35,765 bases of DNA from Opitutales bacterium (GCA_049599475.1 JBMYOQ010000043.1:1-35765), one strand, 5' to 3'. Positions 19,006 to 30,354 are shown, counted from the first letter of the stretch. The notes: a model not told the origin generated them from the sequence alone. Program-made: numbers and translations.

Positions 19006-19608
19006 ATGTCTAAACCTCTCTTCCGCGCATATGCTGATGATTTGTCTACTGTTGTTGGTAAGATAGATTGGACAGTTCTGGAGCCCATTGCGCATGCCCT
19101 GGTTTTGGCATGGAAGAATGACAGCTCCATTTTTATTTGTGGAAATGGTGGGAGTGGCGGTAACGCCAATCACCTTGCGACAGATTTTGTATGGGGAGTG
19201 GCTCCTAATTCAGGTAAAGGTATGCGTGCGCAGGCGCTAACAGCTAATTCGAGTGTACTGACCTGCTTAGCAAATGATATTTCGTACGAAGAATCTTTCG
19301 CCGAACAGGTAAGAATTTTGGGCAGACCCAGGGATGTCCTTATTGTCATGTCCGGTAGTGGAAACTCGCCTAACATACTGCGGGCGATTCAGGCCGCTCA
19401 GGAAAAACAGATCACGACTATTGGTTTTTTGGGTTTTGATGGAGGCAAGGCCTTAGAAATGGTCGACCTCAAGTTACATTTTCCGATAAATGATATGCAG
19501 ATTTCTGAAGACTTGCAGCAGGTCGCGGGTCATATGCTAACGCGTTGGTTGAATGAGAATTATGAGGCGGCGCTCAGTGAAGTCAGCTTAGATTCTATCA
19601 ATGCGTAA
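19006..19608 (+). CDS. gmhA: SIS-domain phosphoheptose (sedoheptulose-7-phosphate) isomerase
   Basis: CGNGGSGGNANH, TCLAND, SGSGNSPN, GFDGG, MQISED. AGGAG ribosome-binding site at 18994-18998. Confidence 0.85.
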   Translation: MSKPLFRAYADDLSTVVGKIDWTVLEPIAHALVLAWKNDSSIFICGNGGSGGNANHLATDFVWGVAPNSGKGMRAQALTANSSVLTCLANDISYEESFAEQVRILGRPRDVLIVMSGSGNSPNILRAIQAAQEKQITTIGFLGFDGGKALEMVDLKLHFPINDMQISEDLQQVAGHMLTRWLNENYEAALSEVSLDSINA

Positions 19609-20593
19609 GTTAGCGGTCATCGGCAGTAATGCGTTTTCTGCTGCCTATTTCATTAAGGTAGCCCTCGAGGAGGGTTGGGATGTCGTGGGAATCTCGAGGT
19701 CGTCTGAGGTAGCGGAACCGTATCGTCCCTATGCTTGGGATTCACCTTCACATAAAGGGACTTTTCGTTTTGTTCAGGCCCATTTGGCAGACGACACTGA
19801 TAAAATCCTGAATGTCATTGAAGAGGAAGAAATTGCTTACGTGGTGAACTTTGCTTCGCTGGGGATGGTAGCTGAAAGCTGGCAGTATCCAAAGGATTAC
19901 TACGTGACGAATGTTGTTGGTAACGTAGCCCTCCACGAAGGACTGAGACGGTTTGATTTCCTGAAAAAATATGTTCATGTCTCTACTCCGGAGGTCTATG
20001 GTAATACGTCGGGTGACGTTAAAGAGGATTGTGTCTTCAACCCGAGTACTCCGTATGCCGCTTCACGTGCAGCGTGTGACCTTCATTTGCAGACTTTTGC
20101 GGCTCAATATGATTTTCCGGTAGTCTTTACGCGGGCGGCCAATGTGTTTGGTCCGGGGCAGCAGCCCTACCGTATCATCCCGCGAGCCATTTTGTGTGAT
20201 CGTTTACCAGAGACTCTACATTTGCACGGCGGTGGAGTATCTGTGCGCTCATTTATTCATATCCGCGATGTGTCCGTGGGTACTCTGATGCTTTTAGATA
20301 AAGGAGTAAACGGTGAGGCCTATCATCTTTCTACGGATCGTTACGTATCTATCCGTGAACTCGTTGAGTTGATATATGCGCGTATGGGTTCTGATTTCGC
20401 GTCGCGTGTCGAAGTATCACCAGAGCGCCCCGGAAAAGATCCAGCTTACTATCTGGATAGTCAAAAACTACATGATCTTGGTTGGCAGCCTCAAGTTTCG
20501 CTGGAGGATGGTATTGATGAGACTATTCGCTGGATCGATCAATATTTAGCACCGATTCGAGATTTACCTCTCGGTTATACGCATATTCGTTAA
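19601..20593 (+). CDS. NAD-dependent nucleotide-sugar epimerase/dehydratase (4,6-dehydratase-like SDR)
   Basis: IGSNAFSA, HVSTPEVYG, PSTPYAASRAA (YxxxR), R.ANVFGPGQ, RSFIHI.D. Overlaps the gmhA stop. Confidence 0.88.
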   Translation: MRKLAVIGSNAFSAAYFIKVALEEGWDVVGISRSSEVAEPYRPYAWDSPSHKGTFRFVQAHLADDTDKILNVIEEEEIAYVVNFASLGMVAESWQYPKDYYVTNVVGNVALHEGLRRFDFLKKYVHVSTPEVYGNTSGDVKEDCVFNPSTPYAASRAACDLHLQTFAAQYDFPVVFTRAANVFGPGQQPYRIIPRAILCDRLPETLHLHGGGVSVRSFIHIRDVSVGTLMLLDKGVNGEAYHLSTDRYVSIRELVELIYARMGSDFASRVEVSPERPGKDPAYYLDSQKLHDLGWQPQVSLEDGIDETIRWIDQYLAPIRDLPLGYTHIR

Positions 20594-20602
20594 CGTTTTG
20601 TA

Positions 20603-22150
20603 ATGCCCTCGACCACACAGGAAAAAATACTTGCATACGCAGAAGCGTCAGAAGTTTTTTGTAGATTGCGCACTGAGGGAAAGACTCTGGTGCAGTGTCA
20701 CGGAACGTTTGATCTGGTACACCCTGGCCACCTGATTCACTTCGAGGAGGCGAAGGCTCTTGGTGATATTTTGGTGGTTACGCTGACTGGCGAGCAATTT
20801 GTAAACAAGGGGCCTGGGCGCCCTTACTTTAATGATGCTCTCAGAGCGAAGTCACTTGCTTCATTACACATGGTGGATTATGTAGTGGTAATTCCATTTT
20901 CTGCGGCTGTTGAAGCAATCGAATGCGTGAAGCCTGATGTTTACTGCAAAGGTAAGGAATACGAAGATACCCGTAATGATGTAACCGGGAATATTCATGA
21001 CGACCTGTCCACTGTGGAGAAATACGGAGGCAGCATGGCGTATGTGGGAAGCGTCGTGTTTAGTTCAACTAAACTTCTTAACAGAGGCTTTGATACGCAT
21101 TCAGAGGAAGTAAAAGCTTTCTGCAAAGCTTTTGGCGAACGTTTCGACAGTGGATGGTTGCGTGATGAAATAGACCGCTGGAGTGACCTTAAGGTTTTGG
21201 TCGTTGGCGATGCTATCTTCGATAAATATACAACCGTTAATGTTCAGGGTCTCACATCAAAGAACAGAATCATTTCAGGGCGATATGTCGCTGATGATGT
21301 TCAGGCAGGAGGTGCTTTGGCAGTCTACCGTCACGTTCGTGCGTTTACGAATAATGTTAAAATTCTCAGCCTTGTCGGTGATGACCCTGTTACGGACTTG
21401 ATGCTTGGGGAAACTGTTGACCCAGAACATGATTGGCTTATAAGAGATCCTCGCTTTACGACGATTATTAAACAACGTTTTGTGGAGCCCGCCTCCGAGC
21501 GTAAGGAGATTTCCAAGCTCTTCTCGATCAATTATATTGATGATGAAGCTCCAGTGAAGGAGATTCAGCATGAACTCGAGAACCGATTGAAAGCAGTGTT
21601 ATCGGACTTCGACCTTGTGCTTGTGATGGATTTTGGTCACGGGATGATGCAATCTACTGTGCGTGAGATCGTCCAAGATGAAGCTCCATTTCTTTTCGTT
21701 AATTGCCAGACGAATAGCTACAACCGTGGCTACAATATTATTAATCAGCAATATACGAAAATGAATGCCTTTTCTCTTGATCTTCCAGAGCTTGAGTTGG
21801 CAATCAGTCAGAAGACGCCGGACCCTCAGTTGAGCCTGCAAGAACTTAAAGTGTCTTTCAATTCAGATTACGCGTTCCTTACTCGCGGACCTAGTTCAAC
21901 ATTGGGTCTATATAATGGAAAAATGAGCGCATTGTGCCCTGCCTTAGAGTCGGACGTAGTCGACACCATTGGCGCAGGTGATGCGTTCTGTTCGGTGGCG
22001 GCTTTCGCTTGTGCTCGAGGGTTGCCCGTTGATGTAGCAACTTTTTTGGGGCAACTCGCAGGTGCTCAAGCGGTGAAGTATGCTGGCAACACTCAATCAA
22101 TTCGAAAGGATAAGCTGCTGAAAGCGATCAGTGCGCTGACAAGCTACTAG
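20603..22150 (+). CDS. Bifunctional nucleotidyltransferase / PfkB kinase (HldE/RfaE-like, transferase domain first)
   Basis: N-terminal HGTFDLVHPGH, NKGPGRP and SSTKL. C-terminal VGDAIFD, GGA, DFGHG and DTIGAGDAF. Confidence 0.88.
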   Translation: MPSTTQEKILAYAEASEVFCRLRTEGKTLVQCHGTFDLVHPGHLIHFEEAKALGDILVVTLTGEQFVNKGPGRPYFNDALRAKSLASLHMVDYVVVIPFSAAVEAIECVKPDVYCKGKEYEDTRNDVTGNIHDDLSTVEKYGGSMAYVGSVVFSSTKLLNRGFDTHSEEVKAFCKAFGERFDSGWLRDEIDRWSDLKVLVVGDAIFDKYTTVNVQGLTSKNRIISGRYVADDVQAGGALAVYRHVRAFTNNVKILSLVGDDPVTDLMLGETVDPEHDWLIRDPRFTTIIKQRFVEPASERKEISKLFSINYIDDEAPVKEIQHELENRLKAVLSDFDLVLVMDFGHGMMQSTVREIVQDEAPFLFVNCQTNSYNRGYNIINQQYTKMNAFSLDLPELELAISQKTPDPQLSLQELKVSFNSDYAFLTRGPSSTLGLYNGKMSALCPALESDVVDTIGAGDAFCSVAAFACARGLPVDVATFLGQLAGAQAVKYAGNTQSIRKDKLLKAISALTSY

Positions 22151-22163
22151 CTGAGCTAGTGGA

Positions 22164-22258
22164 AGAATTCAGAATTTAGAGATTAGAATTTAGACGATGA
22201 ACAAAAAATATAAGACATCGAGATTTCCAGCCCCCTAAATTCTACGTTCTAAAATCTA
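22164..22258. repeat. Heptamer inverted-repeat element A (intergenic)
   Basis: Left arm agaattc-agaattt-agagatt-agaattt-aga (22164-22194). Right arm ctaaatt-ctacgtt-ctaaaat-cta (22235-22258). Confidence 0.9.
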
Positions 22259-22274
22259 TTTATATCTATAAATC

Positions 22275-23237
22275 ATGAAAATTCTACTAACAGGTGCCTG
22301 TGGGTTTGTCGGAACCCAGTTAACAAAGAGTCTTTTAGATGCTGGCCATGAAGTGATCGGGGTCGATATTATGTGGTTCGGTAATTTTTTGGCGTCGCAC
22401 GAGAATCTTACGGTTATTGAGGCAGATATTCGCGATACCGATAAAGTCCCTATGGAGGGCGTAGATGTTGTATTGCATCTCGCAAACGTAGCCAATGACC
22501 CCTGTGCTGATCTTGATTCGAAGTTGAATTGGGAAGTCAATGCATTGGCCACTAAGTTCCTGGTCGAGAAAGCAATCGACCATGGTGTGAAGCAGTTCGT
22601 TTATGCAAGTTCGGGGAGTGTCTATGGCGTCAAGAATGAGCCCGAGGTTACTGAAGAGCTGTCTCTTGTGCCGATATCCGACTACAATAAAACGAAGATG
22701 GTCAGTGAGCGGGTTCTCCTGAGCTACCAGGACCAGATTGTTGTGAATATCATTCGCCCTGCCACAGTGTGTGGATATTCGCCGCGGATGCGTTTGGATT
22801 TGTCGGTGAATATTCTGACGATGTTGGCTTTGCGTGATGGCAAAATTACGGTGTTTGGTGGCGATCAAACTCGGCCTAATATTAATATCAAGGACATGAT
22901 TCGTGTGTATCACCATTTCTTAGATAAAGGCATGGAATTACCGGGGATTTATAATGCAGGCTTTGAGAATATTTCGATTATGGATATCGCAGAGCGTGTT
23001 ACCGAGAAGGTTGACGCTGAAATCATTGTGACTCCGTCCAATGATCCACGTTCTTATCGCTTATCATCCAAGAAGCTTTTAGATACGGGCTTTACGCCAA
23101 AGTATACCGTGGATGACGCGATGAACGAAGTAATCGAAGCGTGGTCAAGTGGTGTGCTGCAAGATGAGGAGCATTTTTATAATATAAAGACCATGAAACG
23201 ACTGTCTTCAGAACAAGCTGAACCGGTCCTTTCTTAG
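22275..23237 (+). CDS. NAD-dependent nucleotide-sugar epimerase/reductase (extended SDR)
   Basis: TGACGFVG, HLA.VANDP, ASSGSVYG, YNKTK, RPATVCG.SPR.RLDL. Confidence 0.9.
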   Translation: MKILLTGACGFVGTQLTKSLLDAGHEVIGVDIMWFGNFLASHENLTVIEADIRDTDKVPMEGVDVVLHLANVANDPCADLDSKLNWEVNALATKFLVEKAIDHGVKQFVYASSGSVYGVKNEPEVTEELSLVPISDYNKTKMVSERVLLSYQDQIVVNIIRPATVCGYSPRMRLDLSVNILTMLALRDGKITVFGGDQTRPNINIKDMIRVYHHFLDKGMELPGIYNAGFENISIMDIAERVTEKVDAEIIVTPSNDPRSYRLSSKKLLDTGFTPKYTVDDAMNEVIEAWSSGVLQDEEHFYNIKTMKRLSSEQAEPVLS

Positions 23238-23247
23238 GACAGCCTAA

Positions 23248-24087
23248 GTGTCACGTAAAACATCAATCATGTCCGCTGTTAAAGTGCCTATTCAGAATCA
23301 ATTGAGGATGGACGTGGTACGGCTGTCCCATCAGGCGAGGACGCCACATTTGGGGTCCTCATTGTCGTGTGTGGACATGATAGCTGCTCTCTATTTTGAA
23401 GGGTTTTTGAAGCATCGCCCATCCCAACCCGATTGGGAGGAACGCGATCTGTTTTTCTTGAGTAAAGGTCACGCAGTAACGACTTTGTATGCTGCCCTAG
23501 CGCGCTCCGGTTATTTTAATGTGGAGCATTTATTCGAGCGCTATTTTGAGGAGGGTGGACCTTATCCTGAGCACCCGGCACCCAACGCCTTGCCAGGTAT
23601 AGAGTTCGCAACAGGTAGCTTGGGCCATGGCTTATCGGTAGCAACGGGCGCCGCTTTGGCTAATAAAATGTCCGGTAGAGGCAGTCGTGTGTTTGCGTTG
23701 CTCAGTGATGGCGAGTGCAATGAGGGCTCGACCTGGGAAGCTGCTATGTGGGCGGGAGCTCAGGGAAGTCTGCGGATTTGCGCAATGGTAGATTTTAATA
23801 AATGGCAAGCTACAGGGCGCAGTGCTGAGGTCATGGCGCTTGAGCCATTTGAAGATAAATTTCGAGCTTGTGGTTGGCGAGTGGCTCGTATCGATGGAAA
23901 TAATCCGGAGGCAGTAGGCAGAGCTTTATCTGTATTTGAAAACGACGATTCCAGCCCCTTGGCAATCATCGCTGACACTGTGAAAGGCAAAGGCATTTCC
24001 TTTATGGAAGATGATAACAACTGGCACTACCGAATACCGACGGAAGAGGAGGTAGGCAAAGCCAAGCAGGAGCTTGGGCTTTGTTAG
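23248..24087 (+). CDS. Transketolase-like TPP enzyme, N-terminal subunit
   Basis: HLGSSLS, SKGH, HP, TGSLGHGL, SDGECNEG.TWE, TVKGKG.SFME...WHY. Alternative start ATG 23269. Confidence 0.92.
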   Translation: MSRKTSIMSAVKVPIQNQLRMDVVRLSHQARTPHLGSSLSCVDMIAALYFEGFLKHRPSQPDWEERDLFFLSKGHAVTTLYAALARSGYFNVEHLFERYFEEGGPYPEHPAPNALPGIEFATGSLGHGLSVATGAALANKMSGRGSRVFALLSDGECNEGSTWEAAMWAGAQGSLRICAMVDFNKWQATGRSAEVMALEPFEDKFRACGWRVARIDGNNPEAVGRALSVFENDDSSPLAIIADTVKGKGISFMEDDNNWHYRIPTEEEVGKAKQELGLC

Positions 24088-24240
24088 ATTTTAGAGTTTA
24101 GAACTTAGAATTTAGAAAATTATATTTGATAAGCTGCCGTCCACCATTTCCTAAATTCTATCCTCTGATTTCTCATATCCTTTATCAACTCAAGATCACC
24201 AGATCCCTTTTCCTAAATTCTAGGATCTAAACTCTCAAAA
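24086..24240. repeat. Heptamer inverted-repeat element B (one left arm, two right arms)
   Basis: Left arm agatttt-agagttt-agaactt-agaattt-aga (24086-24116). Right arms ctaaatt-ctatcct-ctgattt-ctcatat (24151-24178) and ctaaatt-ctaggat-ctaaact-ctcaaaa (24213-24240). Confidence 0.9.
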
Positions 24241-24242
24241 CC

Positions 24243-25181
24243 ATGCGCAACGCATTTGCAGATGAAATATTAAAGCTCGCTGAAAAGGATGAAAGAATTG
24301 TCCTGCTGTCGGGTGATATTGGGAATCGTCTCTTTGATCCATTTAAAGCTGCGTGTCCTGATCGCTTTTTCAACTGTGGAGTCGCTGAGCAAAATATGGT
24401 GGGTATGGCTGCGGGTTTAGCGCTTAGGGGATATCGCCCGGTTGTCTACACAATCACGTCTTTTCTATTAAATCGACCCTATGAACAAATCCGAATCGAT
24501 GTCGGATACCATCATTTGCCAGTCACCTTTGTCGGTGTGGGTGGAGGCCTAAGTTATGCTTCCAATGGGGGGACGCATCATGCGACTGAAGACATCGCCC
24601 TCATGCGCACGATACCTGGTATGCAAATTGTGGCGCCCGGGGATGCTCCCGAAGTACGGGCAGCAGTCAATTTGATAGGAAAGGTGGATCAGCCTTTATT
24701 CATCAGAATCGGTAAAAAGAAAGAGCCGGTTGTTCATGAGTCACCGGTAGAATATGCACTGGGTGGTTCGATCTGTTTCAAAGAAAGTGGAACCGTAGGA
24801 ATTTGTGTCACTGGGAATCTATTACCGTTTGCGTTGGAAGCGAATGAGATTCTCCAAGGTCAGGGCGTAGATGCTCGGCTCTATCATGCATACTCGCTGG
24901 AGCCTATAGATCAGGGTATCGTGGATACTTTATTCGACGAATGCACCACGGTATTTTCGGTCGAAGAACATTCGGTCCAAGGTGGACTGGGAAGTATTTT
25001 ATTAGAAACTGCTCACCAGCGAGGACACGACACGCGTAAACTTAAAAAAATAGGCACACCTCATAGCTTTCATCACCGAACGGCCACCCAACAGCAGCAC
25101 CGAGAACAGTTAGGCCTCACTGCCGAAGGCATAGCCAAGCAAATACGAGAAAATCTTCCCACCCTGAACTCTAAACCCTAG
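24243..25181 (+). CDS. Transketolase-like TPP enzyme, C-terminal subunit
   Basis: MRNAF, RFFNCGVAEQNM.G.AAGLA, RPYEQIR.D, G.THH..ED, VEEH...GGLGS. Confidence 0.92.
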   Translation: MRNAFADEILKLAEKDERIVLLSGDIGNRLFDPFKAACPDRFFNCGVAEQNMVGMAAGLALRGYRPVVYTITSFLLNRPYEQIRIDVGYHHLPVTFVGVGGGLSYASNGGTHHATEDIALMRTIPGMQIVAPGDAPEVRAAVNLIGKVDQPLFIRIGKKKEPVVHESPVEYALGGSICFKESGTVGICVTGNLLPFALEANEILQGQGVDARLYHAYSLEPIDQGIVDTLFDECTTVFSVEEHSVQGGLGSILLETAHQRGHDTRKLKKIGTPHSFHHRTATQQQHREQLGLTAEGIAKQIRENLPTLNSKP

Positions 25182-25287
25182 TTCCTAAACTCCAAAACCT
25201 AAATTCTAACACCCAAACCCTCCAACCTCCGTGCCCATCCAATCCCCAACAACGAGCAACCAAAAACCAATTCCCAGTTCCCAACAA
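25164..25287. repeat. Heptamer tract C (right-arm type only) plus a second CCA-type heptamer tract
   Basis: ctgaact-ctaaacc-ctagttc-ctaaact-ccaaaac-ctaaatt-ctaacac-ccaaacc (25164-25219), then ccaatcc-ccaacaa-cgagcaa-ccaaaaa-ccaattc-ccagttc-ccaacaa (25239-25287). Confidence 0.85.
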
Positions 25288-25959
25288 CCCACCTCTGGCA
25301 CCGAACTCGATTTCATCGGTCTGGTTCATAAATCGACCAAGCGCGATTATGTGGCACGTGTCACGGAGTATCCGAAAGAGCTAGCTGCCGAAAAAGCATC
25401 TCAGTGGGGGCTCGATTACTGGGATGGTGATCGGAAAACAGGGTATGGAGGCATGCGTTACGATGGCCGTTGGGAGAAGGTTGCACGCGCTATGGCGGAG
25501 CACTACGGCATAAAGTCAGGTGATCGGATCCTCGACATTGGCTGCGGTAAAGGCTTTTTGATGTATGACTTCACTCAGGTCGTTCCGGGGGTCGAGGTCG
25601 TAGGGCTCGATATCTCGGAATACGCTAAGGAACATTCCAAGGAAGAAATTTCGGATAAGATTCATGTGGGGGACGCAGCGGATTTACCTTTCGAAACGGA
25701 TAGCTTCGACTTTGTTGTATCGATAAATGCTTTACATAATCTCGATGCCCACAATCTGGATAAGGCGCTCCGTGAAATGCAGCGTGTGGGAAAGGGCCCC
25801 GCCTTCCTTTGCGTTGAAAGCTTCCGCAATGAATCTGAAAAAGTAAACCTCCTCTACTGGCAACTCACTTGCCGCGCCTTTCATTCCCCAGACGCCTGGC
25901 GCTGGCATTTCGAAACCGCGGGATATACCGGAGATTATGGATTCATCTATTTTGAGTGA
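25231..25959 (+). CDS. Class I SAM-dependent methyltransferase
   Basis: YWDGDRKTGYGG, ILDIGCGKG, GLDIS, LPF..DSFD.V. GTG start with a repeat-derived N-terminal extension. Confidence 0.88.
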   Translation: MPIQSPTTSNQKPIPSSQQPTSGTELDFIGLVHKSTKRDYVARVTEYPKELAAEKASQWGLDYWDGDRKTGYGGMRYDGRWEKVARAMAEHYGIKSGDRILDIGCGKGFLMYDFTQVVPGVEVVGLDISEYAKEHSKEEISDKIHVGDAADLPFETDSFDFVVSINALHNLDAHNLDKALREMQRVGKGPAFLCVESFRNESEKVNLLYWQLTCRAFHSPDAWRWHFETAGYTGDYGFIYFE

Positions 25960-25982
25960 TTGCATCACTCAAAATAGATGAA
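25942..25982. repeat. Perfect 19-bp palindrome across the methyltransferase stop codon
   Basis: ttcatctattttgagtgat-tgc-atcactcaaaatagatgaa. Confidence 0.95.
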
Positions 25983-26424
25983 AGGGTTTAGAGATTAAGT
26001 TTTAGAATTTAGGGATGGAGTCGGGGTTTCGTAAGTTAAAGGTTTGGCAGAGAGGTAAGGCACTTGCCGTGTCGATTTATCGAATCACAGCGTCTCGGCA
26101 ATTTGAGCAGGATTGGGGGTTGAGGGACCAGATGCGACGGTGCGCGGTAAGTATCCCTAGTAATATCGCAGAAGGTGAAGGGCGCAGCTCTGAAATAGAT
26201 TCTGCTCGTTTTTTATCTATTGCGCGTGGATCGGCTGCCGAACTGATTACGCAGCTAGAAATAGCCGAAGAAATTGAATACCTTAAAAATAATATTGTGT
26301 TTGAAGCCATCGACGAGTGTGAGCAGATATCCTCAATGTTGTCCGCACTCATATTAAAGAAACGCGCAAAGCCTAAGAGATAGAGCCTGAACCCTAATCT
26401 CTAAATTCTGAACCCTAAACTCTA
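25983..26424. repeat. Heptamer inverted-repeat element D enclosing the four-helix-bundle gene
   Basis: Left arm agggttt-agagatt-aagtttt-agaattt-aggg (25983-26014) abuts the ATG. Right arm ctgaacc-ctaatct-ctaaatt-ctgaacc-ctaaact-cta (26387-26424) begins 3 nt after the stop. Confidence 0.9.
26015..26383 (+). CDS. Four-helix-bundle protein (23S rRNA intervening-sequence protein / Avd-like family)
   Basis: FRKLKVWQ....L...IY.IT......WGL.DQMRR.AVSIPSNIAEG..R.......FL.IARGS.AEL.TQL.IA. Confidence 0.93.
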   Translation: MESGFRKLKVWQRGKALAVSIYRITASRQFEQDWGLRDQMRRCAVSIPSNIAEGEGRSSEIDSARFLSIARGSAAELITQLEIAEEIEYLKNNIVFEAIDECEQISSMLSALILKKRAKPKR

Positions 26425-26430
26425 TTAAAA

Positions 26431-27465
26431 ATGCGAAGCATTTCCGCCCTCCTCATCGAACAAAAAAAGCCTCTCGAATTGGCAGAGGTCGAAATTCCTC
26501 AGCTTTCCTACGGGCAGGTGTTGGTGGAGGTAAAGCAATCGCGTATCTGTGGTTCACAACTTGGGGAAATCGATGGGGCCAAAGGGCCTGATCGCTGGTT
26601 GCCGCATTTGTTGGGCCATGAAGGAGTCGGAATTGTGCGCGAAATCGGTCCGGAGGTGAGCACTGTGCGAGTAGATGATCGCGTGTGCATGCATTGGCGT
26701 CCGGGCGCGGGTATCAATGCTCGTCCACCCCAATATGATTGGAACGGGAAAACGGTAAATGCTGGTTATGTCACCACATTCAACCAGTATGCCGTAGTTT
26801 CGGAGAATCGCCTGACTACGGTTCAATCCAATGTGTCTGATGACCTGGCATGTTTAATGGCGGATACGCTAACAACTGGTTTCGGGGTCGTGTCCAATGA
26901 CGCGCAGGTGAAAATCGGTGAGTCTCTGTGTTTAATTGGGTGCGGTGGTATCGGGATGGGGGTAATACAAGGTGCCGCATTGGCCGGGGCCTATCCCGTT
27001 ATCGCTGTTGATCTAGTCGACGATAAACTTGCGTTCGCTAAACGTATCGGTGCGACGCACACATTTCGTGGCGATGATCCCGATTTAGATTCTAAGATTC
27101 GAACGATCGTCGGGCAGGCAGGTGTTGATGTTATGGTGGATGGTACGGGAGTGCCCGCTGTCATTGAAAACTGTTACAAGCTAACTCAACCTAGAGGCCG
27201 AACAGTTTTATTCGGAGTCATGGCGTATGATCGTTCAGTAAACCTGCACACTCTACCGTTGCACCATGGTCAAGTCCTTACCGGGAGCGAAGGCGGGCAG
27301 AGTCGTCCCGACATTGACATCCCACGAATAGCCGCACTTCACGAAGCTGGTAAATTTTCGACTGTTGAATGGTTCACGAAAAAAGGAAGATTGAGCGAAA
27401 TAAACGATCTCATCGCAGCGCTCCGCTCAGGCCAAGAAAGGCATGTGGGGGTGAGATTCTTATGA
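26431..27465 (+). CDS. Zinc-binding medium-chain dehydrogenase/reductase
   Basis: ICGS, LGHEG.G, IGCGGIG. Lacks the four-Cys structural zinc lobe. Confidence 0.88.
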   Translation: MRSISALLIEQKKPLELAEVEIPQLSYGQVLVEVKQSRICGSQLGEIDGAKGPDRWLPHLLGHEGVGIVREIGPEVSTVRVDDRVCMHWRPGAGINARPPQYDWNGKTVNAGYVTTFNQYAVVSENRLTTVQSNVSDDLACLMADTLTTGFGVVSNDAQVKIGESLCLIGCGGIGMGVIQGAALAGAYPVIAVDLVDDKLAFAKRIGATHTFRGDDPDLDSKIRTIVGQAGVDVMVDGTGVPAVIENCYKLTQPRGRTVLFGVMAYDRSVNLHTLPLHHGQVLTGSEGGQSRPDIDIPRIAALHEAGKFSTVEWFTKKGRLSEINDLIAALRSGQERHVGVRFL

Positions 27466-27472
27466 ATCTCAC

Positions 27473-27575
27473 AGAATTTAGATAATAGGTTTTAGAATTT
27501 AGACGATACAGTTCAGGCTCTGGAGCCGTTTCACCTAAGCCCTAAACTCTAAAATCTAATCCCTAACTTCTAACA
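27473..27575. repeat. Heptamer inverted-repeat element E (intergenic)
   Basis: Left arm agaattt-agataat-aggtttt-agaattt-aga (27473-27503). Right arm ctaagcc-ctaaact-ctaaaat-ctaatcc-ctaactt-ctaaca (27535-27575) runs directly into the ATG at 27576. Confidence 0.9.
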
Positions 27576-29066
27576 ATGCTCCTCGGTCTCGATATGGATA
27601 ACACAGTCTGCGACTACGGTGCTGCGTGGGCGTGGGCAGCTTCAGAGATATTGGATGGGGCTTGGGATATTACGAGTGATCCGAGGCGTGAACTGAAGAA
27701 GCATTTCCAAGAAAAACCAGGGGGGAATCTGGAGTGGACTGAGTTGCAAGGGATTATCTACGGTCAGGGTATCGAGCACGCCCGAATCCCGGATGGACTC
27801 CTCAGTGCTATGGATCAATGGAGAGCTCAAGGGGGGCGAATTGTTTTGGTGAGCCATAAGACTCGTTATCCAGCATATGGAGAATGCCTTGATCTACATG
27901 CTGCTGCCGAGAAGTGGCTCTATGCCACGGGTCTTATCGGGAAGCTTGATGAAACCTTTTTTGAAGCCACGGTCCAGGCAAAGATCGATCGCATCGCAGC
28001 CCTCCGTCCTCAAGTATTTGTCGATGACCTCGAAATGATCGGCTCCCATCCCGATTTTCCCAAAACGACCCAATTTCTCCATTACTCCAGTCCGGAGGAC
28101 TGGACTCAATTAGAAGCTGTGCAGAAATTAGAGTTTAGAGATCAGGGTTTAGATAAAGAAGAAATGCCCCCTCTGTCCTCGGTTCCAAATTCTAAATTCT
28201 CTAGCCTGAAATCTAAGACTCTTTCCGGCGGCCTCAACAATGCGGTAACATCGGAAGGTGATACGGTCCTTAAAACTTACCCACAATCACCCGCGGATGC
28301 GCGGCGCCGATATGGCCGTGAAGTGGCCTTTCTCGAAACGATGCAAGGCGTCGGGCGCATCCCCAAGGTAATTGAGAAGCACCCAGAAGAGCCCGCACTC
28401 GTTATGGAAAAAATCCCGGGCCGTCTTGTGGACACTTCAAATTTGACGACCACTGATTGGGACCAAGCAGTAGACTGGCTCAAGAAACTCTTCATCAAGA
28501 GTGGATCCCTAGATCGCTCGCAAGGCCCCAAGGCCAACGAGGCTTGTTTCTCCCTTATGGACTATCTAGGCGTCCTTCATCTGAGGCGAGACAGGCTCGC
28601 GCAGAATTTAGAGGCTTCGCAGAGTTTAGAAATTAGGGAACTGAAGGTAGAAAGGAATGATGGGGACCCCTCTCAACTCTCCAATCTAAACTCTAAATTC
28701 TTAAATCTATACTCTGAGCTCGCGAAGCGAGCGTTATCTCACCCTGAGTTCAAAACGAAAGCCCCCGCGTCTCAACATGTCTACAGTCCCTCAGATATAG
28801 GCTTCCACAATACGCTGCGTCTCGAAGATGGCACTCTGGCATTTATCGATTTCGAATTCGCTGGTTGGGATGATGGCGCAGGTTTGCTGGCTGACTTCAT
28901 CTCTCAACCACGTGTTTCGGAGGAAGATAATCCATATGCCTCAAATCCCTTGATGTTGTTGGATGAATTTCGTCTTTGGATCTCCGATTCAGATGAGACG
29001 TTTTTACTGAAATGTGAACTGCGAGAGCTGTGGTGGAGTTTCGTAAAGGCGCTCAGAGTTAATTGA
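27576..29066 (+). CDS. Fusion of a HAD-like phosphatase and an APH-fold phosphotransferase
   Basis: N-terminal LGLDMDNT, VSHKT and FVDDL. C-terminal GGLNN, VLKTYP, SPSDIGFHN and FIDFEFAGWDD. Confidence 0.8.
   Translation: MLLGLDMDNTVCDYGAAWAWAASEILDGAWDITSDPRRELKKHFQEKPGGNLEWTELQGIIYGQGIEHARIPDGLLSAMDQWRAQGGRIVLVSHKTRYPAYGECLDLHAAAEKWLYATGLIGKLDETFFEATVQAKIDRIAALRPQVFVDDLEMIGSHPDFPKTTQFLHYSSPEDWTQLEAVQKLEFRDQGLDKEEMPPLSSVPNSKFSSLKSKTLSGGLNNAVTSEGDTVLKTYPQSPADARRRYGREVAFLETMQGVGRIPKVIEKHPEEPALVMEKIPGRLVDTSNLTTTDWDQAVDWLKKLFIKSGSLDRSQGPKANEACFSLMDYLGVLHLRRDRLAQNLEASQSLEIRELKVERNDGDPSQLSNLNSKFLNLYSELAKRALSHPEFKTKAPASQHVYSPSDIGFHNTLRLEDGTLAFIDFEFAGWDDGAGLLADFISQPRVSEEDNPYASNPLMLLDEFRLWISDSDETFLLKCELRELWWSFVKALRVN
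28123..28219. repeat. Heptamer inverted-repeat element F (in frame within CDS)
   Basis: Left arm agaaatt-agagttt-agagatc-agggttt-aga (28123-28153). Right arm ccaaatt-ctaaatt-ctctagc-ctgaaat-ctaagac (28185-28219). Confidence 0.85.
28603..28728. repeat. Heptamer inverted-repeat element G (in frame within CDS)
   Basis: Left arm agaattt-aga...gcttcgc-agagttt-agaaatt-aggg (28603-28638). Right arm ctcaact-ctccaat-ctaaact-ctaaatt-cttaaat-ctatact-ctgagct (28672-28720), with gcgaagc (28722-28728) complementary to gcttcgc. Confidence 0.85.
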
Positions 29067-30354
29067 TTACACGTGAAGCGATTTTGAAGAAACTCTCGTG
29101 TAATTGATCGACGGTGGATGGGTTCCAAAGATATATTTGATTTTCATTATTCCAACAATTCGCTTTGCCGACTTCCATGTATTTGCGCTCATGCACTGTC
29201 CGATAGTTGTAAAGGACACAAGGGTTTTGATTCATATACGCCATTGTTGACGGTCCAGAAGGGCCTCCAACAAATATCGTTGCTAAATATATTAAGGTGT
29301 AGTCCAAGTTAACGTTGTGTCCTTTATACTCCCGGGTGAACAAACAATTTTCAGCTATATCCGCTGGGAAATCGGCTCGTTCACCATCGATAATAAGCCA
29401 TTTGATTTTCGGATATCTATTTAAGGACTCCCTGATAAGGCTTTGATAGTCTTCAGAGCGAGCGTTTCGTTTGATTGTATACTTATTGTTTCTTATGTGT
29501 GTAGCGAAAAAATAATTACGAATATTGTGTTCTGAAAGATATGTTTTTGCTGCATTAATATGATTATTCTCAGGAATAAGGCGTGGGAGTATTTTGGTTT
29601 CTTGATGAAAGCCTTGGATGAATCTGTAGTAATCTGTATAATTCCGATAAGCGACTCCGCTGTCGGATTTAAATTTGGGAATCACCCATTCGCCCTCAGG
29701 TTTTTCTGCCAAATATCTCTCGAGTTCAAGGGCATCTTCAATATAGATATATTGGTCTTTTCTGCGTGTTAGCGAAGAAAAGTGAATTAATTGGTCGTTG
29801 TTTGGAAGGCCCTCTTTAAGCTCGTTATCGAACCGATAAGGTCGACGAGAATCTCTGAACCAGATAGTTTTGATGGGAATGTTTCCGTAGTAATCGGAAA
29901 TCATATTTAGGATAACCACGAAATTTAGATAATCGCCGAAAGTTTGAGGGACGATGCGGAAGTCCCATACACCTGTGATCCATTTTGGACTGGCTTTATT
30001 GGGGTAAAGCTCGGATCGGCGTTTCAACATTATTTGGTCTACAAACTGGATCTCTGGAAATTTTGAAAATTGAAATGGGTTGAATTCAGAAATTTGATAC
30101 GATAGCTCTTCGTCGGTAGTGTTTTCTATATTGTTTTTCAGGCCTTGGATAAGTGCCAAAAGCTCGAACGTTTTTTCGGGATTCACATAAGGGAGACTCT
30201 TTGCCTCTGTTTTGTCATAAAGTGAAGCATGAGCACTCAATTTTGTCGTGAAGGCTGTGATATGCTTGCGCAGAGCTTCGCTATTCTGAATGGCGACAAG
30301 GTTAAGCGCCTTGAAATAAAATCGATATAGCCTTTTGACAGATTTTTCTTCCAT
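29059..30354 (-). CDS. AT-rich hypothetical protein, putative glycosyltransferase-like (GT-B-type C-terminal region)
   Basis: 431-aa ORF with TFGD, THIRNN....RNA and LIYLATIFVGGPSGPS..A.....P....N, resembling putative glycosyltransferases of glycan loci. Confidence 0.55.
   Translation of the reverse strand: MEEKSVKRLYRFYFKALNLVAIQNSEALRKHITAFTTKLSAHASLYDKTEAKSLPYVNPEKTFELLALIQGLKNNIENTTDEELSYQISEFNPFQFSKFPEIQFVDQIMLKRRSELYPNKASPKWITGVWDFRIVPQTFGDYLNFVVILNMISDYYGNIPIKTIWFRDSRRPYRFDNELKEGLPNNDQLIHFSSLTRRKDQYIYIEDALELERYLAEKPEGEWVIPKFKSDSGVAYRNYTDYYRFIQGFHQETKILPRLIPENNHINAAKTYLSEHNIRNYFFATHIRNNKYTIKRNARSEDYQSLIRESLNRYPKIKWLIIDGERADFPADIAENCLFTREYKGHNVNLDYTLIYLATIFVGGPSGPSTMAYMNQNPCVLYNYRTVHERKYMEVGKANCWNNENQIYLWNPSTVDQLHESFFKIASRVIN

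What the first reader, a model, noticed from the sequence alone, without database searches (positions are those of the whole stretch)
25983..26424. Four-helix-bundle (IVP/Avd-like) gene sits precisely in the loop of one element
Seen: the left arm ends on the base before the ATG, the right arm starts 3 nt after the stop, and tttagagatta (25987-25997) pairs perfectly with taatctctaaa (26395-26405). The gene has no evident role in sugar synthesis. Known: this family occurs in the loops of RNase III-excised 23S rRNA intervening sequences and is related to Avd, the nucleic-acid-binding partner of DGR reverse transcriptase. Inference: an mRNA-level intervening element whose protein binds the 7-mer stems (periodic repeats suit an oligomeric binder) and supports spread or processing. 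A, B, E, F and G would be non-autonomous derivatives. No RT, transposase or recombinase is in the window, so any catalyst must act in trans.
Basis: partly seen in the sequence, partly recalled or inferred. Interest (0 to 1): 0.85.

Follow-up and report, generated by a model that had tools for sequence, protein, structure and literature searches.

The report
Heptamer-armed four-helix-bundle gene cassette
A small four-helix-bundle gene wrapped in two mirror-image runs of 7-base repeats sits as an insert between two genes of a sugar operon; the same packaging surrounds this gene family in many phyla, so it is likely a selfish cassette whose arms would fold in the transcript like the RNase III-cut intervening sequences of ribosomal RNA.

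Summary
ORF 26015-26383 is a clear PF05635/TIGR02436 protein with the fold of 2GSC, 2RLD and Avd. It lies between a 5' arm (25983-26014) and a complementary 3' arm (26384-26424), both made of degenerate heptamers.

This is not chance. In 104 homologous loci from many phyla, 74 have complementary flanks, against 3% of mismatched flank pairs. The unit sequence is locus-specific, and 7 is the dominant period.

Three related genomes have the methyltransferase and dehydrogenase genes abutting, with no cassette. A fourth carries a cassette at another junction of the same operon.

The layout matches the ORF-bearing 23S rRNA intervening sequence of Coxiella, which has heptamers before the ATG and a stem cut by RNase III. 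Here the host is an mRNA.

IVP genes are co-oriented with their neighbours (63 loci against 12), which fits expression by read-through. Stem mismatches show no G:U excess, so selection on RNA pairing is not shown.

Protein binding to the arms, excision and the mobility catalyst remain untested.

Gene-less hairpins of the same unit family fill five other junctions or sites of this operon.

This scan noted the same cassette type on other DNA in at least 12 genomes. My four paper searches found only the Coxiella heptamers in print.

The parts
25942..25982 (.). Perfect 19-bp palindrome with a 3-nt loop. Its left half is the last 19 nt of the methyltransferase gene, stop codon included. Its right half is an exact inverted copy of that sequence, abutting the cassette.
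   Evidence: the repeat finder I3, 100% complementary. The orthologous gene ends in G016, G032 and G034 have no such copy.
25983..26014 (+). 5' arm: about 4.5 degenerate heptamers of TTTAGAG / TTTAGAA / TTTAGGG type. It ends on the base before the ATG.
26015..26383 (+). IVP gene, 122 aa. PF05635 / TIGR02436 four-helix-bundle protein with the conserved R42-x3-S46-x3-N50-x2-E53 face.
   Evidence: AF2 model with pLDDT 95.9. Foldseek: 2gsc TM 0.81-0.92, 2rld, Avd 4dwl TMq 0.76.
26384..26424 (+). 3' arm: about 5.5 degenerate heptamers of CCTGAAC / CTCTAAA / CCCTAAA type, complementary to the 5' arm. It ends 6 nt before the ATG of the next gene.
25231..25959 (+). Upstream host gene: SAM-dependent methyltransferase. 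Its native stop is kept.
   Evidence: orthologues
26431..27465 (+). Downstream host gene: zinc-type alcohol dehydrogenase family. In G016 its ATG overlaps the methyltransferase stop (TAATG).
22164..22257 (+). Gene-less hairpin A of the same heptamer family, between the bifunctional kinase/cytidylyltransferase gene and the epimerase gene.
24084..24239 (+). Gene-less hairpin B between the two transketolase-half genes. The stop of the upstream gene (24085-24087) lies in its first unit.
   Evidence: (z -4.69)
25163..25221 (+). Array C: pyrimidine-type units only (CCTAAAC type), across the end of the transketolase-C gene. Homologous to the 3' arm of the cassette.
   Evidence: score 20 against shuffles 8.6 +/- 1.1
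27478..27566 (+). Gene-less hairpin E between the dehydrogenase gene and the APH-like gene. Both arms are about 80-90% like those of the cassette.
   Evidence: score 23 against 9.5 +/- 1.4; z -3.67
28123..28153 (+). Array F (purine-type units) inside ORF 27576-29066, in a variable linker of the protein.
28607..28715 (+). Hairpin G inside ORF 27576-29066, read in frame. The protein is about 13 residues longer here than in two orthologues.
   Evidence: The fold z-score is only -0.85.

Best explanation
Positions 25983-26424 are one complete copy of a gene cassette: a PF05635 four-helix-bundle gene between two complementary arrays of degenerate heptamers. Together with a 23-nt inverted copy of the upstream gene's end, it forms a 471-base insert between the stop of a methyltransferase gene and the start of a dehydrogenase gene. 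It likely works like the ORF-bearing intervening sequences of 23S rRNA.

Shown here:
- The gene-plus-arms package is the normal state of this protein family across many phyla, with a different heptamer at each locus.
- The cassette is missing from the same junction in related genomes.
- The gene is co-oriented with its host genes.
- No sigma-70-like promoter is seen at the cassette.
- This genome has an RNase III gene.

Inferred:
- The cassette is transcribed by read-through from the operon.
- The arms pair into a 30-40 bp imperfect stem that hides the IVP start codon.
- RNase III would cut that stem, as was shown in vitro for the Coxiella IVS. That would separate the cassette message from the host message.

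How it moves is unknown. The cassette carries no recognisable mobility enzyme, so any catalyst would act in trans. The arms seem to be kept complementary by a DNA-level process (slippage plus copying between arms) rather than by selection on RNA pairs.

The gene-less hairpins A, B, C, E, F and G are likely products of the same process, spread locally within this operon.
For: Family-wide architecture:
- 16 of 30 loci from 40 relatives exceed the 99th percentile of mismatched flank pairs. So do 40 of 78 loci from many phyla.
- With 120-nt flanks, 74 of 104 loci score 13 or more. The same score is reached by 81 of 2,600 mismatched pairs (3.1%) and by 13 of 104 flank pairs compared in direct orientation.
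- Period 7 is the best period in 71 of 103 upstream and 60 of 103 downstream flanks. Clear period-7 tracts (70% or more self-identity in 35 nt) occur in 40% and 35% of flanks, against 0-1% of control segments.
- 11 of 16 loci on predicted viral contigs also score 13 or more, and one more scores 12.

Insert status:
- G016 has the methyltransferase stop overlapping the dehydrogenase ATG. G032 has a 10-nt gap and G034 a gap of about 20 nt. None has a cassette there.
- G036 has an IVP cassette between two other genes of the orthologous operon.

Read-through expression:
- Both neighbours lie on the IVP strand in 63 loci and on the opposite strand in 12, of 95 loci with both neighbours called.
- There are 0 promoter-like sites in 25600-26700.

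Stem: the minimum-free-energy fold pairs the arms and includes the ATG.

Precedent (passages): the Coxiella IVS has 2-3 tandem GACAGAT units plus GACAGAA just before the S23p ATG, a 28-bp terminal stem, and RNase III cleavage in mid-stem.

RNase III gene present.

Link between gene and hairpins:
- Both IVP cassettes of this genome share their unit family with gene-less hairpins.
- Inverted heptamer pairs were seen in samples of 5 of 5 IVP-bearing genomes and 0 of 4 genomes without an IVP match.
Against: - No RNA-level signature. In 74 stems there are 2,008 Watson-Crick pairs, 82 G:U-type mismatches, 103 A:C-type and 220 others (binomial p 0.14).
- No transcript ends or cleavage could be seen. 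The only RNA run holds one 237-nt contig on another gene.
- The Coxiella authors conclude that S23p is probably not expressed there (passage), so the precedent does not show a role for the protein.
- The arms here are imperfect (72-84% complementary). The whole-cassette fold z-score is only -1.98.
- 30 of 104 loci show no stem within 120 nt.
- The genome census is small. Three of the sampled contigs (G002:C55, G006:C46, G007:C1) were chosen because IVP hits showed they were long. In G002 and G006 the only pairs found are the filled cassettes themselves. Related genomes are not independent.
Confidence: 0.55

Rival explanations
1. A purely DNA-level element. The arms are the substrate (hairpin or cruciform in single-stranded or supercoiled DNA) of a trans-acting recombinase or of replication template switching. 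The RNA stem is incidental, and the IVP protein may help at the DNA level.
For: - No G:U excess over A:C in 74 stems.
- A perfect 19-bp inverted copy of the upstream gene's end abuts the cassette. This looks like a fold-back or template-switch footprint.
- Changes are concerted within arrays: in viral loci L224 and L225, three successive units differ at the same position.
- Hairpins occur inside a coding region.
- 5' arms are purine-rich in 60 of 74 stems. That polarity is the same on both DNA strands.
Against: - The strong co-orientation with host genes (63 against 12) is not expected from a DNA-only element, unless antisense insertions are purged.
- The 12 Y1_Tnp-like and 5 RT matches of this genome are not next to either cassette or to the hairpins.
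- No target-site duplication is visible at this copy.
Confidence: 0.25
2. A host-serving regulator. The IVP protein would be an RNA- or DNA-binding factor that controls this sugar operon (or, elsewhere, cas operons), with the heptamer arms as its operators.
For: - IVP genes were reported inside cas loci and read as functionally associated (passage; figure legend).
- Several hairpins of one unit family lie at junctions of this one operon.
Against: - Host contexts are unrelated. Here it is a sugar-nucleotide operon. In G037, five copies lie among sulfatase, DUF3604, rotamase and HupE genes.
- Orthologous operons do without it.
- Unit sequences differ at every locus.
Confidence: 0.08
3. Coincidence: a small gene that happens to lie in generic intergenic heptamer repeats of this genome.
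For: The genome has many heptamer arrays without a gene. The whole-genome census gives 73 arrays and 23 inverted pairs, mostly GGATGAA/TTCATCC.
Against: - The second paralogue of this genome is also enclosed by arms.
- 74 of 104 homologues in other genomes are enclosed, against 3.1% of mismatched pairs.
- Control segments 800-900 nt away have period-7 tracts in 0-1% of cases.
Confidence: 0.02
4. A stray or decayed Avd of a diversity-generating retroelement.
For: Fold similarity to Avd: 4dwl with TMq 0.76, and chains of the DGR ribonucleoprotein 8ub7. Sequence and structure kinship is stated in passages.
Against: - No reverse transcriptase in the window.
- The 5 RT matches of the genome lie on other contigs.
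- Sequence identity to Avd is about 15% in the Foldseek alignment, against 39-41% to the non-DGR protein Xcc0516.
- I did not search for template or variable repeats.
Confidence: 0.02

Closest known systems
ORF-bearing intervening sequence (IVS) of 23S rRNA: Coxiella burnetii helix 45 (S23p) and Leptospira (PMC4990558, passages read)
   Same: - A PF05635-family ORF in the loop.
- Terminal inverted repeats that form a stem of about 28-30 bp.
- Tandem heptamers directly before the ATG, with copy number varying between strains.
- No mobility gene.
   Different: - The host transcript is an mRNA operon, not rRNA. The cassette sits exactly between a stop and a start codon.
- RNase III cutting is shown for Coxiella and only inferred here.
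- The paper describes the heptamers as a Coxiella detail, not as a family-wide rule.
Avd, accessory protein of diversity-generating retroelements (4DWL, 8UB7; passages)
   Same: Four-helix-bundle fold (TMq 0.76). The cited passage describes Avd as a positively charged pentameric barrel 'similar to S23 ribosomal proteins'. It binds structured RNA next to its own gene.
   Different: No reverse transcriptase and no DGR genes nearby; template and variable repeats were not searched for. About 15% identity. Heptamer arms are not a described DGR feature (recalled).
23S_rRNA_IVP genes reported inside cas operons (Zhang and Ye 2013, PMC3936711, passage; Altae-Tran et al. 2023, figure legend)
   Same: The same family is found wedged between operon genes, for example between cmr3 and cmr2. 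The same conserved motif GxxRxxxSxxxNxxE is reported.
   Different: Those papers read the position as a functional association with CRISPR. The passages I read do not mention flanking repeats or insertion.
MITEs and REP/REPIN hairpins (non-autonomous repeats moved by a transposase in trans)
   Same: - Short inverted-repeat elements in intergenic DNA.
- Many gene-less copies beside few gene-bearing ones.
- The catalyst is not inside the element.
   Different: - The arms are tandem heptamers whose sequence differs from locus to locus.
- No target-site duplication at this copy.
- No adjacent Y1 (RAYT-type) gene.
- The cargo is a conserved non-transposase gene.
Cyanobacterial STRR heptanucleotide repeats (recalled; no call and no paper read)
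   Same: Tandem heptamers in intergenic DNA, of unknown origin.
   Different: A link to PF05635 genes is, as far as I recall, not described. No cyanobacterial locus was examined here.

Membership tests
PF05635 / TIGR02436 (23S rRNA IVP, 'four helix bundle protein') | Profile match above the curated cut-off | tested here: met
   PF05635 123.2 bits against 33.8. TIGR02436 120.9 against 24. NF008912 133.8 against 124.
PF05635 / TIGR02436 | Four-helix-bundle fold like Xcc0516 (2GSC) and BT_0352 (2RLD) | tested here: met
   AF2 model with pLDDT 95.9, four long helices. Foldseek 2gsc TMq 0.81-0.87, 2rld 0.76-0.79. phmmer against 2gsc E 4.2e-19.
PF05635 / TIGR02436 | Conserved motif RxxxSxxxNxxE | tested here: met
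   R42, S46 and N50 are invariant and E53 is conserved in at least 90% of 25 aligned sequences. The motif is named in the PMC3936711 passage.
PF05635 / TIGR02436 | Pentameric assembly | not tested
   2gsc and 2rld each hold 5 chains of one sequence. No assembly prediction was run.
ORF-bearing rRNA intervening sequence (IVS) | Lies inside a 23S (or 16S) rRNA gene | tested here: not met
   No Rfam family, and so no rRNA, in the window. Both neighbours are protein-coding genes.
ORF-bearing rRNA intervening sequence (IVS) | Terminal inverted repeats that close the element in a stem | tested here: met
ORF-bearing rRNA intervening sequence (IVS) | Tandem heptamers directly upstream of the ORF's ATG (Coxiella) | tested here: met
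   Coxiella passage
ORF-bearing rRNA intervening sequence (IVS) | Excision by RNase III | not testable with these tools
   One RNase III gene is in the genome. No usable RNA reads.
DGR accessory protein Avd | Encoded next to a DGR reverse transcriptase with template and variable repeats | tested here: not met
   No RT domain in the 26 window ORFs scanned. RT matches lie on contigs C3, C51, C69, C52 and C31 only. Template and variable repeats were not searched for.
MITE / TIR transposon | Target-site duplication outside the inverted repeats | tested here: not met
   The bases outside the left arm (25973-25982) and outside the right arm (26425-26434) share no direct repeat (read).
MITE / TIR transposon | Several near-identical copies in one genome | tested here: not met
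   This genome has 2 IVP copies with different arms. The arms alone recur at 6 sites, all in this operon. In relative G037, two copies are 94.6% identical over 614 nt.
REP / REPIN with RAYT | Hairpins flank or accompany a Y1 (HUH) transposase gene | tested here: not met
   12 Y1_Tnp-like matches. By comparing the coordinates, none is adjacent to a cassette or to an inverted heptamer pair.
STRR heptanucleotide repeats of cyanobacteria | Tandem heptamers in intergenic DNA of cyanobacteria | not tested
   Recalled only. No cyanobacterial locus was among those examined.

The most novel reading that the evidence does not exclude
The IVP pentamer is the missing trans-acting partner of heptamer-repeat hairpins. 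It would recognise the 7-nt periodicity rather than the sequence (about five units per arm, one per subunit). Like its relative Avd, it would recruit a polymerase or reverse transcriptase that writes matching repeat arrays on both sides of an insertion site. Under this reading, IVP cassettes are the autonomous members of a very widespread mobile-element class. The unexplained tandem-heptamer hairpins of many bacteria (including STRR-type repeats and rRNA intervening sequences) would be its gene-less products.
Probability: 0.12. Interest if true: 0.9.

Novelty: new variant of a known kind. Interest (0 to 1): 0.66.

Why it matters
PF05635 is a very large orphan family. This one protein finds 19,357 cluster representatives at E up to 0.001. 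It is known only from rRNA intervening sequences, from a kinship to Avd, and from scattered 'associations' with operons such as cas loci.

The results here show that the gene normally travels as a package with complementary heptamer arrays, and that the package is an insert in ordinary operons. Three consequences follow:
- Those 'associations' are more simply read as insertions.
- The rRNA IVS becomes one habitat of a much wider element.
- An orphan protein is tied to an orphan class of repeats.

Annotation also benefits. Small genes at operon junctions, 7-mer arrays that could be mistaken for other repeats, and repeat-derived peptide inserts in proteins (as in ORF 27576-29066) can be recognised for what they are.

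The function of the protein and the way the cassette moves are now directly testable.

Tried and rejected
- Sequencing runs. The best DNA holder, X1, may be the source of the window. X2 and X4 hold identical pieces of the cassette, and no contig joins across it. The one RNA run (X3, polyA library) holds a 237-nt contig on the transketolase-C gene only. Nothing can be said about processing, excision, circles or polymorphism.
- Remnants of the gene in gene-less hairpins. Only the arms align; the loops do not.
- G:U wobble excess as a sign of RNA-level selection: not found.
- Promoter scan of 25600-26700: none. The scan covers sigma-70-type sites only.
- Rfam over the whole window: no family.
- tblastn of the protein against 50,697 phage records: no match at 1e-5. 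IMG/VR viral contigs do hold 16 relatives.
- Linked catalyst: RT and Y1_Tnp matches exist in the genome, but none lies beside the cassettes or hairpins.
- The GGATGAA pair with a 645-nt loop on contig C2: no recognisable gene, and no IVP match there.
- The search for related loci with the 25-sequence alignment A1 failed for lack of a conserved stretch. The 7-sequence alignment A2 was used instead. A2 biases the 80 loci towards proteins with the A[VIL]S[IV]PSN motif.
- 'Stops in all three frames' as a function of the arms. The excess over shuffles (23 against 7.3) is an automatic result of repeating a unit with period 7, so I do not use it.
- Rows dropped before counts. L013, L016, L017, L023 and L024 were dropped (contig end, or genes with internal stops or truncation). 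L057 and L092 were dropped for flanks under 60 nt.

Full report
**1. What is there**

The window is contig C43 of a 4.68-Mb, 146-contig assembly.

Genes 19006-29066 on the + strand form a sugar-nucleotide-type operon. In order they encode:
- a SIS isomerase
- a dehydratase
- a bifunctional cytidylyltransferase/kinase
- an epimerase
- two transketolase halves
- a methyltransferase (25231-25959)
- ORF 26015-26383
- a zinc-type dehydrogenase (26431-27465)
- an APH-like protein

ORF 26015-26383 matches PF05635 at 123.2 bits (cut-off 33.8) and TIGR02436 'four helix bundle protein' at 120.9 bits. Its AlphaFold model (pLDDT 95.9) superposes on Xcc0516 (2gsc, TMq 0.81-0.87), on BT_0352 (2rld), and on Avd of the Bordetella phage DGR (4dwl, TMq 0.76).

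**2. The observation**

The 5' arm 25983-26014 ends on the base before the ATG. The 3' arm starts 3 nt after the stop and ends at 26424. The named 11-mers are exact complements.

The arms are tandem degenerate heptamers, so they pair in several registers: 32 nt at 72%, 28 nt at 82%, and 19 nt at 84%.

The pairing exceeds chance:
- z = 6.6 against shuffles.
- Best partner among 30 loci.
- Score 16, equal to the 99th percentile of 2,600 mismatched flank pairs.

The RNA minimum-free-energy fold of 25975-26432 closes the cassette through the arms and buries the ATG. The whole-molecule z-score is modest at -1.98.

**3. The package is the rule for this family**

The genome's second PF05635 gene (C10:3242-3541) is also enclosed by inverted heptamer arrays, but of another unit: AAATCTC / GAGATTT.

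In 40 relatives, 22 genomes (23 of 41 counting the window's own) have family matches. Of 30 loci examined, 16 have flanks more complementary than the 99th percentile of mismatched pairs.

A scan of one genome per species returned 80 loci. They come from Acidobacteriota, Clostridia, Bacteroidota, Planctomycetota, Verrucomicrobiota, Proteobacteria, Chloroflexota, Acidimicrobiia, a Peregrinibacteria genome and a Methanophagales archaeon. Of these, 40 of 78 exceed the same bar.

Pooling both sets with 120-nt flanks:
- 74 of 104 loci score 13 or more.
- 3.1% of mismatched pairs reach that score.
- 13 of 104 reach it when the two flanks are compared in direct orientation.

The unit differs at nearly every locus. 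Period 7 is the best period in 71 of 103 upstream and 60 of 103 downstream flanks. Period 8 is a minority (15 and 17). Control segments show period-7 tracts in 0-1% of cases.

Sixteen relatives on predicted viral contigs show the same packaging; 11 of them score 13 or more and one more scores 12.

Caveat: the 80 loci were found through one peptide motif of alignment A2, so they sample one part of the family.

**4. It is an insert**

The dehydrogenase has orthologues in five genomes of the same order.

| Genome | Methyltransferase-dehydrogenase junction |
|---|---|
| G016 | Same operon; methyltransferase stop overlaps dehydrogenase start (TAATG) |
| G032 | 10-nt gap |
| G034 | about 20-nt gap |
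| Window | 471 nt lie between stop and start |

None of these three relatives has a cassette or hairpin at that junction.

In G036 the orthologous operon has an IVP cassette at a different junction, between the kinase gene and the first transketolase half.

In G037, five copies lie within 17 kb among unrelated genes: sulfatases, DUF3604, a rotamase and HupE. Two distant copies there are 94.6% identical over 614 nt.

The cassette therefore comes and goes independently of host gene function.

**5. Expression context**

IVP genes share the strand of both neighbours in 63 loci and oppose both in 12, of 95 loci with both neighbours called by longest ORF. No sigma-70-like promoter is seen in 25600-26700. 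This fits transcription by read-through from the host operon.

**6. Comparison with the known IVS**

I read only passages of the Coxiella paper PMC4990558. They state that:
- the helix-45 IVS has a 28-bp stem of terminal inverted repeats;
- RNase III cuts in the middle of that stem;
- two or three tandem GACAGAT units plus GACAGAA lie directly before the S23p ATG, with strain-to-strain copy-number change;
- the authors consider S23p probably not expressed.

The window's element has the same anatomy in an mRNA. The genome has one RNase III gene. Cutting of these arms is inferred, not shown.

**7. Test for RNA-level selection**

A stem under selection as sense RNA should tolerate G:U but not A:C. 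In the 74 stems I counted 2,008 Watson-Crick pairs, 82 G:U-type, 103 A:C-type and 220 other mismatches.

There is no G:U excess. Complementarity therefore seems to be renewed at the DNA level rather than kept by long-term selection on RNA pairs.

Three other observations fit this:
- A perfect 19-bp inverted copy of the methyltransferase gene's last bases abuts the cassette (25942-25982).
- Two nearly identical viral loci differ by the same base in three successive units of one arm.
- Arms have a strand-invariant polarity. The 5' arm is purine-rich in 60 of 74 stems. I cannot explain this polarity.

**8. Gene-less hairpins**

The same unit family forms hairpins or arrays at 22164-22257, 24084-24239, 25163-25221, 27478-27566, 28123-28153 and 28607-28715. 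Their arms are homologous to those of the cassette, with alignment scores of 14-23 against shuffle means of about 9-10; C, E and G are clearest. A, B and E fold with z from -2.0 to -4.7.

The last two lie inside ORF 27576-29066 and are read in frame.

Apart from one non-inverted array on C2, this unit family is confined to this operon. The unit family of the C10 cassette has gene-less hairpins on C16 and C35. A third family, GGATGAA/TTCATCC, has 14 distinct inverted pairs and no gene-bearing member in the assembly.

The loops of the window's hairpins keep no piece of the gene. Whether hairpins derive from cassettes, or cassettes from hairpins, is open.

**9. Do hairpins go with the gene?**

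I counted period-7 arrays and inverted heptamer pairs per 400 kb.

| Genome | IVP matches | Arrays per 400 kb | Inverted pairs per 400 kb | Sample |
|---|---|---|---|---|
| G037 | 18 | 41 | 8 | 400 kb, evenly spaced |
| G007 | 6 | 17 | 2 | 400 kb |
| G002 | 11 | 16 | 1.3 | 300 kb |
| G006 | 12 | 13.8 | 1.5 | 260 kb |
| G000 | 2 | 6.2 | 2.0 | whole genome |
| G030 | 0 | 10 | 0 | 400 kb |
| G017 | 0 | 3 | 0 | 400 kb |
| G023 | 0 | 1 | 0 | 400 kb |
| G035 | 0 | 0 | 0 | 160 kb |

The trend fits a link, but the evidence is weak:
- Only nine related genomes were sampled.
- Three contigs were picked because IVP hits showed they were long.
- In G002 and G006 the only pairs found are the filled cassettes themselves.

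**10. Catalyst**

No RT, transposase or recombinase domain occurs in the 26 window ORFs scanned. The genome has 5 RT and 12 Y1_Tnp-like matches. None lies beside a cassette or hairpin.

**11. Literature**

Four full-text searches found no paper that describes heptamer arms around this family outside the Coxiella IVS. All of the following were read as passages only:
- 18 IVP genes inside cas loci, for example between cmr3 and cmr2, read as a functional association (PMC3936711).
- The family listed among CRISPR-adaptation associations (PMC10910872, figure legend).
- IVP ORFs in 16S and 23S insertions of CPR bacteria (10.1101/2024.02.27.582315).
- The Avd kinship.

Subscription journals are not covered by these searches. 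I did not open any supplements.

This scan's own notes report the same cassette type in at least 12 other genomes. I reached the reading before seeing them and tested it independently.

**12. Verdict**

The element is a member of a widespread cassette type that is barely described in print and is built like an rRNA intervening sequence, but it lives in an mRNA operon. Insert status, family-wide packaging and co-orientation are shown. RNase III processing, protein-arm binding and the way it moves are inferred or unknown.

Noticed in passing
window 25942-25982: Perfect 19-bp palindrome with a 3-nt loop. The right half is an exact inverted copy of the last 19 nt of the methyltransferase gene and sits directly before the cassette's 5' arm. 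Orthologous gene ends in three relatives lack it. It may be a fold-back or template-switch footprint, or a 3'-end hairpin for the upstream message.
   Followed up: partly
window 28123-28153 and 28607-28715, inside ORF 27576-29066: Heptamer arrays of the cassette's unit family lie inside an APH-like coding sequence and are translated in frame. At the second site the protein is about 13 residues longer than in two orthologues.
   Followed up: partly
G000, many contigs (e.g. C6:81777-81940, C24:3763-3864, C33:44485-44661): A dominant GGATGAA/TTCATCC heptamer family. Three-unit patterns with up to 3 mismatches occur 30 and 26 times. There are 14 distinct inverted pairs with loops of 18-645 nt, all with the purine-rich arm first. 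None holds an IVP gene.
   Followed up: partly
74 stems from loci L001-L111: The 5' arm is purine-rich in 60 of 74 stems (p 6e-8). Reverse-complementing a hairpin keeps this polarity, so it is a property of the hairpin and not of gene orientation. It is unexplained.
   Followed up: partly
L239 (G037:C1:13000-32000): Five PF05635 genes within 17 kb among unrelated genes, three of them 88-93% identical to each other. Copies at 30252 and 4469479 are 94.6% identical over 614 nt, and the latter sits inside a longer outer inverted repeat.
   Followed up: partly
L224 and L225 (IMG/VR contigs): Two nearly identical cassettes differ in three successive upstream units at the same position (AACGTTG against AACGTTC), while the downstream arms are identical. 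This is a block change within an array.
   Followed up: no
flanks of 103 loci: A minority of cassettes have arms of period 8 instead of 7: 15 upstream and 17 downstream flanks, for example L003, L090 and L008.
   Followed up: no
G000 contigs C5, C9, C11, C59, C90, C145 and others: Twelve matches to the Y1_Tnp (IS200-type HUH) domain. Several lie in open frames of about 340 aa that match only the first 60-70 profile positions. They form a repeated gene family of unclear nature.
   Followed up: no
G000:C2:33375-34065: A GGATGAA/TTCATCC inverted pair encloses 645 nt with no recognisable gene.
   Followed up: partly
window 26042-26273: A 232-nt contig of a sediment-metagenome run (X4) is identical to the interior of the IVP gene. 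A second marine run (X2) holds identical pieces of the operon and cassette.
   Followed up: no
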